From the IMG/VR virus record IMGVR_UViG_2541047807_000011: a DNA stretch of 34,131 bases, one strand, 5' to 3'. Positions 24,001 to 27,000 of this stretch are shown one piece after another. The position numbers were made by a program. The stretch's first letter is position 1. The number at the start of each line of letters is the position of its first letter. The stretch is from a virus. Taxonomy: Duplodnaviria; Heunggongvirae; Uroviricota; Caudoviricetes.

Positions 24001-27000
24001 TAGCCATTCGCCATACCGGGATTTCTTTCTGCTGCGTGACAACAAAAAGCGCCCCGGCAAACGCGCCCACCACAACCCCGAAATCGGTATTGGTGAGAAG
24101 GCCAAACACACTGGCACCACCGATGGTGACTGCCACAGCTCCGCCGCCTGATAAGGGTTCAGACATGAGTTTCTCCTGTAAATCTGAGCCACTGACGGCC
24201 CGTAAATAACACCCGGTCAAAGGCACAGAATGACTTTTGCCGGGCGCTATCCCTTAAGGTGTCTTGTGGTCTGAGTGGACAGGGTAAACGGTATGCTGTG
24301 GTGGGTACTGCTGGGGGTGTTCAGCACCCCCAGCAGGTTGATTATCTGGATGGGTTAAAGAGAAGCGAGTTTTAATGGTGGCTTATAACATGCCCGCGCC
24401 AGCAGGTTAGCTCTTTCCACGGCATTACGCATTTCCCGTTCCGCGTCAATCATTCTGTTTACGGCTGACAGCACTTCATCATGATTCGTTACTGATTCCG
24501 GGCTTTGGGCCTGTTTCGCCAGGTAACTGGATAAACTGCACATTTCAGCATGTCGGCGACGGGCTGCATCCCGGGCCTTGTCTGAAAATGCGGTATATTC
24601 ACCGAGCACTGCATAGTCGATATCGGTGTCAGAACGCATCATTTCGTGTCTCCTTTTTTCTGAGGCCCATTAATCAAAAAGCCCCACCTGGGTGGGGCTT
24701 TTCAGCGAAGTCTGTTTTTGTCGTCGGTGTATCAGCTGCCATGCGTACCGGTCTGAAATGCCGTAACGGGGACAGAGCAGTGCCAGCGCCTGCCGGTGTG
24801 AGCATCCGCCTTTTACATGCTGCTGTAAATCAGCCATAAAACGGGTGTTACGCAGGGCACGTAACGCATGATCGCAACGGGGAATGTAAAACGGTGCGCC
24901 GCCAAGAAAACGGATCAGTTTGTTGATTTCGTCTTCGGTCAGCACGTCATGTAACAGGGCATGGACACCGCCGGTGCGTTCGGCGTGTACGCCGGTTTTA
25001 CCGCTTAACGTCACGCCACCAAAAGAACGAATCAACCGGGTCAGGGCGGGGAAGCCAATCACGCTAATCAGTTGCTGCACGGAATCGGGCAGCAGTGCCT
25101 GCGCATCGCGAAGATCTGTTTCACTGAAGGTCTGCATGATGGCGTCTCCGGTAGTAACTTACTGTTATTATAGCCATACATGATCGCCTGTACAGACCAC
25201 AAAAAAAGCCCCTGCATGGCAGGGGCTAAACTAAGTCTTATTTAGTCAGGTCTAGAATAACCAGGCCTTTTCTTGATTCTATTTGCTCTTTACCAAAAAC
25301 AAACGAATCAAAACAATCCATACGATATTCTTTAAACTGATTTCTTGAACGCTCCAGAAACTGCCTGTCATCCCTGATAACGTTAGACCAGTAATCCTGT
25401 AGCTGGTTTTTCATTTTTATGCAGGAACCATACACAGGATCAAGCGGGTCGTCCCCCAGTTTACTGGCCTGTTCATCCAGTTGTTTTAGTCCTTTTTTGA
25501 TATTCTTCCACTCTTCAATATTTCCCTGCTGATACTGCGATGCCGCTTCTGGCATAGCGTAATAAAGTTTTCCACTTTCCCGAAGCATCTGTTCAGCCAA
25601 TGGCTTCATATCCTGATAACGTTTCAGTTCCTTTTGCGCCTGTTCCTCTGTCTGTGCCAGCACAGAACAAGAGAAAATAACCCCTACTAAACAAAACAAC
25701 CATTTTTTCATCATTGATTTCTCCTTCTTGAATCTTTAACCAGCGCCACCATCACTCCAAAAAGCTGTTCATCCGTCAGCCATTCGATCACATGTTGCTT
25801 ATACATGTGAGATGCCAGTCCTTCCGCATACGCCCAGGAACGACCGGCATCAGCCAGCAACGCTTCAATTTTGGATAATATCGATTTTCTGCTCATTGCA
25901 ACACGGGGGCGGCGACCTTTACCGGCGGGTGCCTTGCGCGGAAATCCCTGTTCATGCATGTATTCCCGGATGATGCGCAGTTCATCGAGGTTGCAGCGTG
26001 TGGTGCTGGTTTTACCGGTCAGGCGGGCCAGCGTCTGGCGATAAAGGACATCATCCCACCCCAGATACGCCTGACCGGCTTTAATGGCTCCGATCATCTT
26101 TTTCAGCATGTTTGTTATCCTCAAAACGCACGGTAAAACGTGAAACGCCAATCCCTGACAAGAACGCAGCGGCACGGTCAAGAGACAGCCATGTCTTGTA
26201 ATCGCCACGGCGTTCCTGTAGAAAATAGGACACCCCGGCGCGGCGATTCACAGCGAATAGATGATACACACCACCGAACCGCTGCACGACAAACTCATCC
26301 ACGCCACCGCTTTCAGCCTGTTGCCTGAAAGCTGTCATTCCGATTTGTTCAATCTTCATAATGACCAAAACATCACTTTTGGCAGACCAAAACATATGTT
26401 TTGGTCTGCTATTGGTTATTATTAAATTACTTTGCGTTAGTGTGATTCTTCCAGCGATTTTGTGTCGCGCTTCTGTTTCGCCAGACACCGTAAAAACGAA
26501 TAGAGGACCACTCCCTAAAACCAAGATATCTATAGCGAACAACAAGTCGATTTGAGATACGGATAAGTTGCCCTGGCTTTGCTATTAGCAGTCTTGCCTT
26601 ACGGTTTTTCATCATTTTGCTCTCCTGCGTTTCTTTGCTTCGCGTCGTGCAGCTGCAATACCGGTATGGCGCTTTGGTGCCGGGATGATGCTGTCAGCCA
26701 TCAGGGCATGCGGCTTTGCAATTAGCGCAGAAGCCCAAAAACGAGTCGGGTATGGTAATAAACCGATAAACGCTACACGCATTACGCACCTCCTTTGGCG
26801 TCAATATTTACAGCCTGGCAAGCCTCGTTGAGCACCCAGTCAACCGCGTCTTTCCATGCTCCGGTTTCGACTGGCGGATTCTCACACTTTACCTGTTCAT
26901 AGAAACGCACTGCTTTAACTAGTCCTTCCGGCACTACCGACGCTGGCGGGGCAGCATAAAGCTCATGCATTCCATCAGGTAGCAAGTGACCTACATACTC

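What the first reader, a model, noticed from the sequence alone, without database searches (positions are those of the whole stretch)
26361..26408. Perfect 26-bp palindrome with an additional direct half-site in the early region
CAGACCAAAACATATGTTTTGGTCTG is a perfect inverted repeat, and GACCAAAACAT recurs 22 bp upstream, giving three half-sites immediately upstream of the ATG at 26359. A perfect 13+13 palindrome is unlikely by chance. It is more consistent with a dimeric protein operator (internal regulation of the early operon, or a host-factor site) than a terminator, since there is no U-tract.
Basis: seen in the sequence. Interest (0 to 1): 0.45.

Follow-up and report, generated by a model that had tools for sequence, protein, structure and literature searches.

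The report
Conserved double palindrome before gem genes
The palindrome is real and conserved: it sits in front of a small unknown gene and gemA in a Mu-like E. coli prophage and is probably an ordinary regulatory site, but sequence alone cannot say whether a protein reads it on DNA or it folds in the mRNA.

Summary
The palindrome is 14+14 bp perfect (26382-26409). It is the first of two tandem 22-bp dyad units, CCAAAA-N6-TTTTGG-N4-CCAAAA-N6-TTTTGG, so there are four half-sites.

The window is a Mu-like E. coli prophage with its genes on the minus strand. The element fills the 67-nt gap in front of a conserved 92-aa ORF that overlaps gemA.

Across 22 distinct relatives the upstream DNA is of at least three unrelated types, yet the arms barely change. 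Only 1 of 32 arm positions varies, against 9 of 12 spacer positions and 56 of 92 third-codon positions. Transitions that would merely give G·U pairs are also depleted (1 seen, about 9 expected).

This pattern fits sequence-specific reading of duplex DNA somewhat better than a purely structural RNA hairpin. However, no conserved promoter and no candidate binding protein were found. The motif is also absent from this prophage's own repressor/Ner operator region.

An mRNA twin hairpin covering the Shine-Dalgarno-less start region remains nearly as likely. It is not a sense-strand terminator. The element occurs once per prophage, in about 1% of E. coli genomes, and matches no Rfam family. I rate it an ordinary cis-regulatory element of undecided mechanism and modest interest.

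The parts
26382..26409 (.). Unit 1: the 28-bp perfect palindrome GCAGACCAAAACAT|ATGTTTTGGTCTGC. In the mRNA (minus-strand) sense this is hairpin H1.
   Evidence: arm of 14; the maximum in 300 simulations was 12. The isolated 26-nt RNA folds at -15 kcal/mol.
26393..26398 (.). Variable 6-bp centre of unit 1 (CATATG here). This is the only part of the palindrome that changes among relatives.
   Evidence: Alignment A4 columns 32-37: 5 of 6 columns vary.
26365..26382 (.). Unit 2: the second dyad, CCAAAA-N6-TTTTGG, directly abutting unit 1. In the mRNA sense it is hairpin H2, which ends 5 nt before the start codon (8 nt after the first A of AUG is counted from the core). Its 6-nt centre (26371-26376) is variable.
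   Evidence: (I3). All 12 arm columns are invariant and 4 of 6 centre columns vary. H2 folds at about -5.9 kcal/mol.
26363..26373 (+). Third exact copy of the 11-mer GACCAAAACAT, the outer arm of unit 2. In the mRNA it reads AUGUUUUGGUC, identical to the 3' arm of H1, and ends 3 nt before the AUG. It occupies the place where distant relatives carry a Shine-Dalgarno-like GGA(A/T)TGG.
26410..26429 (-). A/T-rich block 5' of the element in the mRNA sense. It is only loosely conserved (16 of 21 columns vary). Homology between otherwise unrelated upstream contexts fades out here, so this is the mosaic junction.
26418..26446 (-). Weak sigma-70-like match, ATCACA-17-AATAAT. It would place a transcription start about 3 nt before the palindrome. 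It is present only in this type of upstream context.
   Evidence: 9 of 12 matches; 1 site found against 2.1 expected by chance. (PWM score 8.0, about the 90th percentile of random windows; absent in other contexts).
26081..26359 (-). 92-aa ORF of unknown function whose start codon (26359-26357) follows the element. It overlaps gemA by 29 nt. The element always travels with this gene.
   Evidence: WP_000687850.1; phrog_7844.
25711..26109 (-). gemA (Mu gp16 family), the next gene of the conserved block.
   Evidence: PF06252, E 2e-18.
26427..26615 (-). Upstream 62-aa accessory ORF (phrog_1380). Its stop codon lies 17 nt before the palindrome. It is replaced by unrelated genes in other relatives.

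Best explanation
The element is a sequence-specific cis-regulatory site at the head of the conserved '92-aa ORF - gemA' block of a Mu-like prophage. It consists of two tandem 22-bp dyad units, so that equivalent half-sites lie two helical turns apart on one face of the DNA. The most likely mechanism is that two dimers (or one tetramer) of a protein not yet identified bind the duplex DNA here. This binding would gate the transcription that enters the gem block, either as a roadblock to read-through from the early promoter or by repressing a weak, context-dependent local promoter. What is shown: the anatomy, the phasing, the uniqueness of the site, its linkage to the downstream gene, and strong sequence-level purifying selection on the arms but not on the centres. 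What is inferred: that a protein binds, which protein it is, and the effect on transcription. Because the site is also transcribed, the same bases must form hairpins in the mRNA next to a start codon that lacks a Shine-Dalgarno sequence. An additional effect on translation is therefore likely and is not excluded.
For: (1) The palindrome has perfect 14-bp arms, against at most 12 in 300 simulations. All three copies of the 11-mer lie at this one locus. (2) In 22 distinct relatives retrieved through the downstream protein rather than through the motif, 1 of 32 arm columns varies. By comparison 9 of 12 centre columns and 56 of 92 third-codon positions of the adjacent gene vary (Fisher p 3e-6 and 2e-9). 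(3) Selection acts on sequence, not only on pairing. Sixteen arm sites could take a transition and still form a G.U pair; only 1 has done so, where about 9 are expected from the transition frequency at 35 four-fold degenerate sites (P 3e-5). No significant covariation is seen. Invariant arms with free centres is the signature of major-groove reading of half-sites. RNA-binding proteins usually show the opposite pattern, with conserved loops and covarying stems (established knowledge). (4) Both units have the same CCAAAA-N6-TTTTGG geometry with a 22-bp period. Distant relatives keep the 6/4/6 spacing and the CCAAAA...TGG motifs even where the predicted RNA structure is weak (-9 to -16 against -20 to -23.5 kcal/mol). 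(5) The element stays attached to the downstream gene across at least 3 unrelated upstream contexts. (6) The Mu gem operon has been reported to act in lysogens, which would imply control independent of the early promoter (Paolozzi & Ghelardini 1992, as cited in PMC3820752).
Confidence: 0.38

Rival explanations
1. The element acts as an mRNA leader. In the early polycistronic transcript it folds either into two adjacent hairpins (H1 of 12-14 bp plus H2 of 6-7 bp) or into an almost isoenergetic nested form (S1:S4 enclosing S2:S3). The structure ends 3 nt before an AUG with no Shine-Dalgarno sequence. It would set a low or conditional level of translation for the 92-aa gene, and by coupling for gemA. 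It could also serve as an RNase III-type processing or stabilising site that separates the variable accessory genes from the gem block.
For: The element lies in the only real intergenic gap after a run of overlapping ORFs, on the transcribed strand, next to the start codon. The 101-nt minus-strand RNA folds at -26 kcal/mol (z -4.0). H1 folds at -15 and H2 at -5.9 kcal/mol, and the nested alternative over the 55-nt stretch folds at -21.6 kcal/mol. In the E. coli lineage the Shine-Dalgarno-like GGA(A/T)TGG of distant relatives has been replaced by a copy of the H1 arm. The single arm change (pair 4, A to G) and most apex changes are G.U in the mRNA sense, where they would be A.C mismatches on the + strand. 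One apex pair changed C-G to A-U. In L022 a TC to CA change lengthens H2 by two pairs. The element is linked to the downstream gene, not the upstream one. The loop of H2 always ends in AUG or GUG (22 of 22), opening a 5-codon mini-ORF whose UGA overlaps the main AUG.
Against: There is no statistically supported covariation. Structure-neutral G.U transitions are strongly depleted, which a purely structural hairpin does not predict. The loops are free and the stems are frozen, opposite to the usual RNA-protein recognition pattern. H2 is A-U rich and weak. Distant relatives keep the sequence motifs without a stable fold. There is no Rfam match.
Confidence: 0.33
2. The element is an intrinsic terminator or insulator for antisense (+ strand) transcription. 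The hairpin followed by the T-rich tail on the + strand would stop transcripts that run against the early genes, for example read-in from the host gene in which the prophage is inserted.
For: The scan flags the + strand at 26380-26411 as terminator-like (14 pairs, tail TTGGTTATTA). The + strand RNA folds at -31 kcal/mol (z -6.4). A second intercistronic hairpin at 29330-29363 also looks better on the + strand and is followed there by TTTTAAAT.
Against: The tail is poor, with only 2-3 U in the first 6 nt. The flanking block is the most variable part of the region (16 of 21 columns vary). The pair-4 variant is an A.C mismatch in mid-stem on the + strand. This reading explains neither unit 2 nor the third copy of the 11-mer. 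No + strand gene or promoter is evident nearby.
Confidence: 0.07
3. The element has no function of its own. It would be a quasi-palindrome perfected by template-switch mutation or local gene conversion that sits at a recombination junction and is conserved only by hitch-hiking with the start of the downstream gene.
For: The mosaic junction lies within about 20 nt of the palindrome. The third 11-mer looks like a conversion of unit 2 by unit 1: the two units are 17 of 22 identical to each other within the window, against 11-13 of 22 between the window's unit 1 and the unit 2 of distant relatives. Template switching in quasi-palindromes is an established mutational process in E. coli (general knowledge).
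Against: The arms are far more conserved than the first and second codon positions of the adjacent gene (1 of 32 against 13 of 92 and 10 of 92 columns varying), while the centres are as free as synonymous sites. Neutral homogenisation would yield symmetric double changes, and only one is seen.
Confidence: 0.07

Closest known systems
Tandem dyad operators of temperate phages (lambda OR1/OR2, P22 and 434 operators)
   Same: These are dyad-symmetric sites with conserved half-sites and a less constrained centre. Adjacent units lie about two helical turns apart, so that dimers bind cooperatively on one face of the DNA.
   Different: Here there is no overlapping conserved promoter and no cognate repressor gene. 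The half-site is unrelated to the repeats in this prophage's own c/ner control region. The arms are 10 bp invariant, which is longer than usual.
Intercistronic processing or regulatory hairpins of phage early mRNAs (lambda N-leader RNase III site, T7 early RNase III sites)
   Same: They are stem-loops without a U-tract, placed between co-transcribed early genes next to a start codon. About 20 bp of helix is available if H1 and H2 stack, or in the nested fold with its 3x3 internal loop.
   Different: There is no evidence of cleavage. The stems are sequence-invariant rather than covarying. Nothing similar is in Rfam.
Hairpin GGCGGTG-TTGCAG-CACCGCC 20 nt upstream of gemA in phage Mu (NC_000929 8193-8212)
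   Same: It is a positional analogue: a stem-loop in the non-coding gap just before the gem genes, at the end of the semi-essential early region.
   Different: The sequence is unrelated, G+C-rich and a single hairpin. Mu has no homologue of the 92-aa ORF at that place; a reverse-strand ORF, gp15, is annotated there instead.
Intrinsic (Rho-independent) terminators
   Same: They have a stable stem-loop with G+C-rich base pairs at the foot.
   Different: No U-tract follows on the transcribed strand, and only a weak one follows on the opposite strand. A genuine terminator of this prophage (25227-25207, stem followed by TTTTTTTG) looks quite different.
REP/BIME extragenic palindromes, plasmid and phage iterons, and parS-type centromere palindromes
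   Same: These are palindromic or 22-bp repeated units found in intergenic DNA.
   Different: This element is single-copy per genome and has only two units. No Rep or ParB gene is nearby. The 92-aa protein has only a sub-threshold similarity to IncP-9 'ParC' (17.7 bits against a cut-off of 95), whose function is itself unknown (PMC12421886).

Membership tests
Intrinsic terminator (sense strand) | A stable G+C-containing stem-loop followed immediately by a U-tract on the transcribed strand | tested here: not met
   The stem is present. The 3' flank on the minus strand is CCAAAAGUGAUG, with no U run. The scan reports nothing on the minus strand at this site.
Intrinsic terminator (antisense, + strand) | A stem-loop followed by a U-rich tail on the + strand | tested here: inconclusive
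   The scan flags the site (tail TTGGTTATTA). However, only 2-3 U occur in the first 6 nt across the contexts, and the tail region is poorly conserved.
Repressor operator | Dyad symmetry with conserved half-sites and a variable spacer | tested here: met
   1 of 32 arm columns varies against 9 of 12 centre columns. G.U-compatible transitions are depleted.
Repressor operator | Overlaps or abuts a promoter that it controls | tested here: not met
   Only a weak match (ATCACA-17-AATAAT) exists, and only in one type of upstream context. No promoter is conserved in position across contexts, and scores lie within the background range.
Repressor operator | A cognate DNA-binding protein can be identified, and the same half-site recurs at its other targets | tested here: not met
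   The 92-aa neighbour has no HTH and no Pfam family, and its best fold match is eL38-like. The motif is absent from the rest of the window. It is also absent from the c/ner control region, which has different repeats.
Structured cis-regulatory RNA (translational operator or processing site) | A fold more stable than shuffled sequence, on the transcribed strand, involving the ribosome-binding region | tested here: met
   The fold is -26 kcal/mol with z -4.0. H2 and the 11-mer cover positions -4 to -21 before an AUG that lacks a Shine-Dalgarno sequence.
Structured cis-regulatory RNA (translational operator or processing site) | Base pairs maintained through compensatory or wobble changes (covariation) | tested here: inconclusive
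   15 of 19 pairs never vary. There is one double change and a few G.U changes. The covariation score is not above the shuffles (100 of 500 reach it).
Any Rfam family | A match to a curated covariance model | tested here: not met
   The best hit is Plastid-psbA-2 at 19.5 bits against a gathering score of 55.8, E 0.94.
RNase III processing site | Cleavage by RNase III in a helix of about 20 bp | not testable with these tools
   Only the geometry can be assessed: 13+6 bp adjacent hairpins, or a nested 11 bp + 3x3 loop + 6 bp form at -21.6 kcal/mol.
REP/BIME-type dispersed palindromes | Many copies per genome in varied intergenic contexts | tested here: not met
   There is one locus per genome, in 58 of 5426 E. 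coli genomes, always in this prophage context. No copy occurs in 50,697 phage records. The three extra IMG/VR hits to the 17-mer are chance matches without the palindrome.
Iterons or replication origin | At least 3 direct repeats next to an A/T-rich region and an initiator gene | tested here: not met
   Only two 22-bp units are present (17 of 22 identical). No Rep-like gene is nearby. Mu-like phages replicate by transposition (established knowledge).

The most novel reading that the evidence does not exclude
The element and the 92-aa protein form a previously undescribed autoregulatory pair. The small alpha/beta protein (eL38-like fold, faint similarity to plasmid 'ParC') would recognise the frozen arms of the double dyad, on DNA or on the folded leader, and so gate expression of the gem (gemA) block independently of the Mu-type early promoter. 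That could explain how gem functions act in lysogens. In the E. coli lineage this control would have replaced an ordinary Shine-Dalgarno sequence by conversion of unit 2.
Probability: 0.1. Interest if true: 0.5.

Novelty: new member of a known kind. Interest (0 to 1): 0.3.

Why it matters
The gem region of Mu-type phages modulates host gene expression and DNA topology and is reported to act even in lysogens, yet its control has never been worked out at the molecular level. This family of E. coli prophages, which includes the one in EPEC strain E2348/69, carries a sharply defined and strongly selected 50-bp element exactly at the entry to that block. That gives a concrete handle (a 60-bp probe and simple arm-swap mutants) for finding the regulator. 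The wider impact is modest: the element is confined to a small prophage family and most probably works by a familiar principle.

Tried and rejected
- **Other copies of the half-site in the window.** None were found beyond chance.
- **Secondary operator of the prophage repressor or Ner.** I fetched the control region outside the window from a genome in which the 53-nt element is 100% identical (L084). It carries different repeats, of the AAAAGTACGA and ATCGAATTCGAT types. Rejected.
- **Mor or C binding site.** Their promoters lie inside the window and carry no such motif. Rejected by inference.
- **Conserved sigma-70 promoter.** A position-weight-matrix scan of 11 representatives of the upstream contexts found nothing conserved.
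- **Rfam.** No family matched.
- **Covariation test.** It was uninformative because the stems do not vary.
- **Function of the 92-aa protein.**
  - Pfam gave nothing, and PHROGs gave only families of unknown function.
  - NCBIfam gave a sub-threshold ParC hit.
- **Wider homologue hunt.** The family is small: 13 protein clusters and 2 species in the GTDB representatives. Deep comparative analysis was therefore impossible.
- **Literature.** No paper on this element was found. The original gem operon papers and an E2348/69 transcription-start-site map are not held.
- **Start codon at the palindrome centre.** The ATG there gives the 104-aa gene calls, but it is absent in many relatives. Rejected.
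- **The + strand hydrophobic ORF 26361-26555.** It is not conserved beyond the element. Rejected.
- **MuA end-site, IHF, FadR and PdhR consensus comparisons.** These were done by eye from memory and gave no convincing match. They are leads only, not tests.
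Full report
**Context**

The window is an almost complete Mu-like prophage of E. coli, with all phage genes on the minus strand. The landmarks are:
- transposase A at 31853-33895 and B at 30941-31834;
- a run of small accessory ORFs, including an Ead/Ea22-like gene at 26782-27279;
- a 92-aa ORF at 26081-26359;
- gemA at 25711-26109;
- a 158-aa ORF with a signal peptide at 25238-25714;
- mor at 24670-25137.

The 451-nt region around the finding is 98% identical to prophages in strain AVS0151 and in EPEC strain E2348/69, and it is found in 106 of 5426 complete E. coli genomes. The 53-nt element itself is 100% identical in AVS0151. The finding lies in the 67-nt gap between the stop of a 62-aa accessory ORF (26427-26615) and the start codon (26359-26357) of the 92-aa ORF, which overlaps gemA by 29 nt.

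Yes. The perfect palindrome is one base pair longer on each side, giving 28 bp at 26382-26409. The next longest perfect palindrome in the window has 7-bp arms, and 300 first-order Markov simulations of the window never exceeded 12. GACCAAAACAT with up to 1 mismatch occurs three times, all at this locus, against 0.69 expected.

Read in the mRNA (minus-strand) sense, the locus is:

CAGACCAAAACAT ATGTTTTGGTCTG CCAAAAGTGATGTTTTGGTC ATT ATG

This is two tandem 22-nt units, each of the form CCAAAA-N6-TTTTGG and separated by N4. There are therefore four half-sites in the order -> <- -> <-. The two units are 17 of 22 identical.

**Comparative evidence**

I collected relatives through the downstream protein, not through the motif. 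Every locus whose protein is at least 90% identical carries the element. This gave 22 distinct sequences (alignment A4).

Upstream of the element these loci fall into at least three unrelated sequence contexts with different accessory genes. Homology fades within about 20 nt 5' of the palindrome. The element therefore belongs with the downstream block and marks a mosaic junction. The accessory DNA further upstream is shared with lambdoid, Stx and P1 phages.

Conservation within the element is sharply bimodal:
- Only 1 of 32 arm columns varies (pairs 1-10 of unit 1 and the 6-bp arms of unit 2).
- By contrast 9 of 12 centre columns vary.
- For the adjacent gene, 56 of 92 third-codon positions vary, and 13 of 92 first and 10 of 92 second positions vary.

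These counts are (Fisher p 3e-6 against the centres and 2e-9 against third-codon positions). The perfect 13-14-bp symmetry is therefore not what is conserved. The conserved object is 10+10 bp around a free 6-bp centre, plus 6+6 bp around a second free centre.

The formal covariation test is uninformative because the stems do not vary. Sixteen arm sites could take a transition and still give a G.U pair. Only one has done so, whereas about 9 are expected from the transition frequency at 35 four-fold degenerate sites of the neighbouring gene (P 3e-5). The sequences are phylogenetically related, so these p-values are optimistic, but the contrast is large.

Distant relatives (55-76% protein identity: L004, L023, L024, L047, L048, L080, L081) show a related but weaker picture:
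- They keep the 6/4/6 spacing and the CCAAAA...TGG motifs.
- They have weaker dyads and weak predicted RNA folds (-9 to -16 kcal/mol, against -20 to -23.5 in the E. coli group).
- In four of them the first three half-sites lie inside the 3' end of the upstream gene. This was confirmed from the gene calls for L047 and read by eye in the other three.
- In six of the seven (all but L081) the fourth half-site position holds a Shine-Dalgarno-like GGA(A/T)TGG.

In the E. coli lineage that Shine-Dalgarno-like sequence has been overwritten by a copy of the 11-mer of unit 1.

**Distribution**

The motif occurs nowhere else in the window. It occurs once per genome, in 58 of 5426 E. coli genomes. It is in none of 50,697 deposited phage genomes. 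In IMG/VR it occurs only in this prophage family; three extra 17-mer hits are chance matches without the palindrome. No Rfam family matches.

**Mechanism**

Two readings survive.

*(A) A protein reads the duplex DNA.* Invariant arms with free centres, identical geometry in both units, 22-bp (two-turn) phasing and the depletion of pairing-neutral transitions are what a sequence-specific dimeric DNA-binding protein produces. They are the reverse of the usual RNA-protein pattern. Retention of the motifs in relatives without a stable RNA fold points the same way.

Several results count against this reading:
- No promoter is conserved across contexts. The ATCACA-17-AATAAT match at 26446-26418 is weak and specific to one context.
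- No binding protein can be named. The prophage's own control region, fetched from AVS0151, carries different repeats. Mor and C targets inside the window lack the motif.

*(B) The mRNA folds.* The element lies on the transcribed strand in the only true intercistronic gap of this part of the operon. It folds significantly better than shuffled sequence (z -4). It offers either tandem hairpins (-15 and -5.9 kcal/mol) or a near-isoenergetic nested fold (-21.6 kcal/mol over the 55-nt stretch). It ends 3 nt before an AUG that has lost its Shine-Dalgarno sequence. The few changes seen favour G.U in the mRNA sense. What this reading cannot explain is why the stem sequences are frozen.

I put (A) at 0.38 and (B) at 0.33. 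The two are not mutually exclusive. An antisense-strand terminator gets 0.07; it is flagged by the scan, but its tail is weak and poorly conserved. A functionless, mutationally perfected palindrome at a recombination junction also gets 0.07. The remainder is left open.

**Comparison with known systems**

The element works like either a tandem phage operator or an intercistronic regulatory hairpin. It fails the membership tests for a sense terminator, REP-type repeats, iterons and every Rfam family. For the operator family, the dyad criterion is met, but the promoter and binder criteria are not.

Phage Mu itself has an unrelated G+C-rich hairpin 20 nt before gemA, in a 275-bp non-coding gap. 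Some control element at the entry to the gem genes may therefore be a general feature of these phages. The Mu gem operon is cited as acting in lysogens (PMC3820752) and as uncharacterised at the molecular level (PMC12407980).

**Verdict**

This is a genuine, strongly selected, lineage-restricted cis-element of ordinary kind, whose level of action (DNA or RNA) cannot be settled from sequence. Interest is modest (0.3). A simple arm-swap reporter experiment would decide between the two readings.

Noticed in passing
window 25167-25227 (minus strand): A strong intrinsic terminator (AGCCCCTGC-CAT-GCAGGGGCT followed by TTTTTTTG, 25227-25207) follows the 158-aa signal-peptide ORF. Immediately after it comes a good promoter-like site, TGTACA-16-TATAAT (25194-25167), in front of mor. 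Unlike in Mu, where gemA overlaps mor, mor here may be cut off from the early transcript and have its own promoter.
   Followed up: no
window 29330-29363: A second intercistronic hairpin (16-nt arms) lies 2 nt before the Shine-Dalgarno sequence of ORF 28926-29318(-), 12 nt before its first ATG. On the + strand it has a G.U pair where the mRNA sense has an A.C mismatch, and it is followed by TTTTAAAT, so it looks like an antisense-oriented terminator. A related hairpin (CAGGCGTAAA...) sits directly upstream of the element in relative L048.
   Followed up: partly
window 26357-26373 (minus strand): The last three nucleotides of the unit-2 centre are ATG or GTG in 22 of 22 variants. They open a 5-codon mini-ORF, (M)FWSL, whose TGA overlaps the main start codon (ATGA). 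This is possibly a coupling device for a gene that lacks a Shine-Dalgarno sequence.
   Followed up: no
window 26393-26395 and relatives L003, P0001, P0002: The ATG at the centre of the palindrome is in frame with the 92-aa ORF, so many annotations call a 104-aa product. That ATG is missing in many relatives, so the 92-aa start is the conserved one.
   Followed up: yes
window 26591-26797: The 56-aa ORF and its flanks are 80-92% identical to segments of lambdoid, Stx-converting, phiV10 and P1 phages. The accessory genes upstream of the palindrome are exchanged across phage families.
   Followed up: no
window 26081-26359 (92-aa protein): This belongs to a small family (13 clusters among 5.8 billion proteins). 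It has a confident alpha/beta model resembling ribosomal protein eL38 and the FtsH N-domain. It also has a sub-threshold, full-length NCBIfam hit to IncP-9 'ParC partition-associated protein' (E 0.002). Its function is unknown.
   Followed up: partly
window 26361-26555 (+ strand): A 64-aa hydrophobic ORF starts 2 nt from the minus-strand ATG and runs through the palindrome. In other upstream contexts it is cut to about 20 codons and it has no Shine-Dalgarno sequence, so it is probably spurious.
   Followed up: partly
L084 3019-3220 (AVS0151 prophage control region, outside the window): The c/ner intergenic region carries four copies of AAAAGTACGA/TCGTACTTTT and a triple ATCGAATTCGAT-type dyad. 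These are presumably the repressor and Ner operators of this phage. The left end shows three TTCTGGGCGG repeats, which are probably transposase sites.
   Followed up: no
L049 and L050 (relatives): Two relatives have frameshifted 92-aa/gemA genes and so are decaying prophages. One of them (L050) has lost 1 nt from the centre of the palindrome, which keeps a hairpin but changes the half-site spacing.
   Followed up: no
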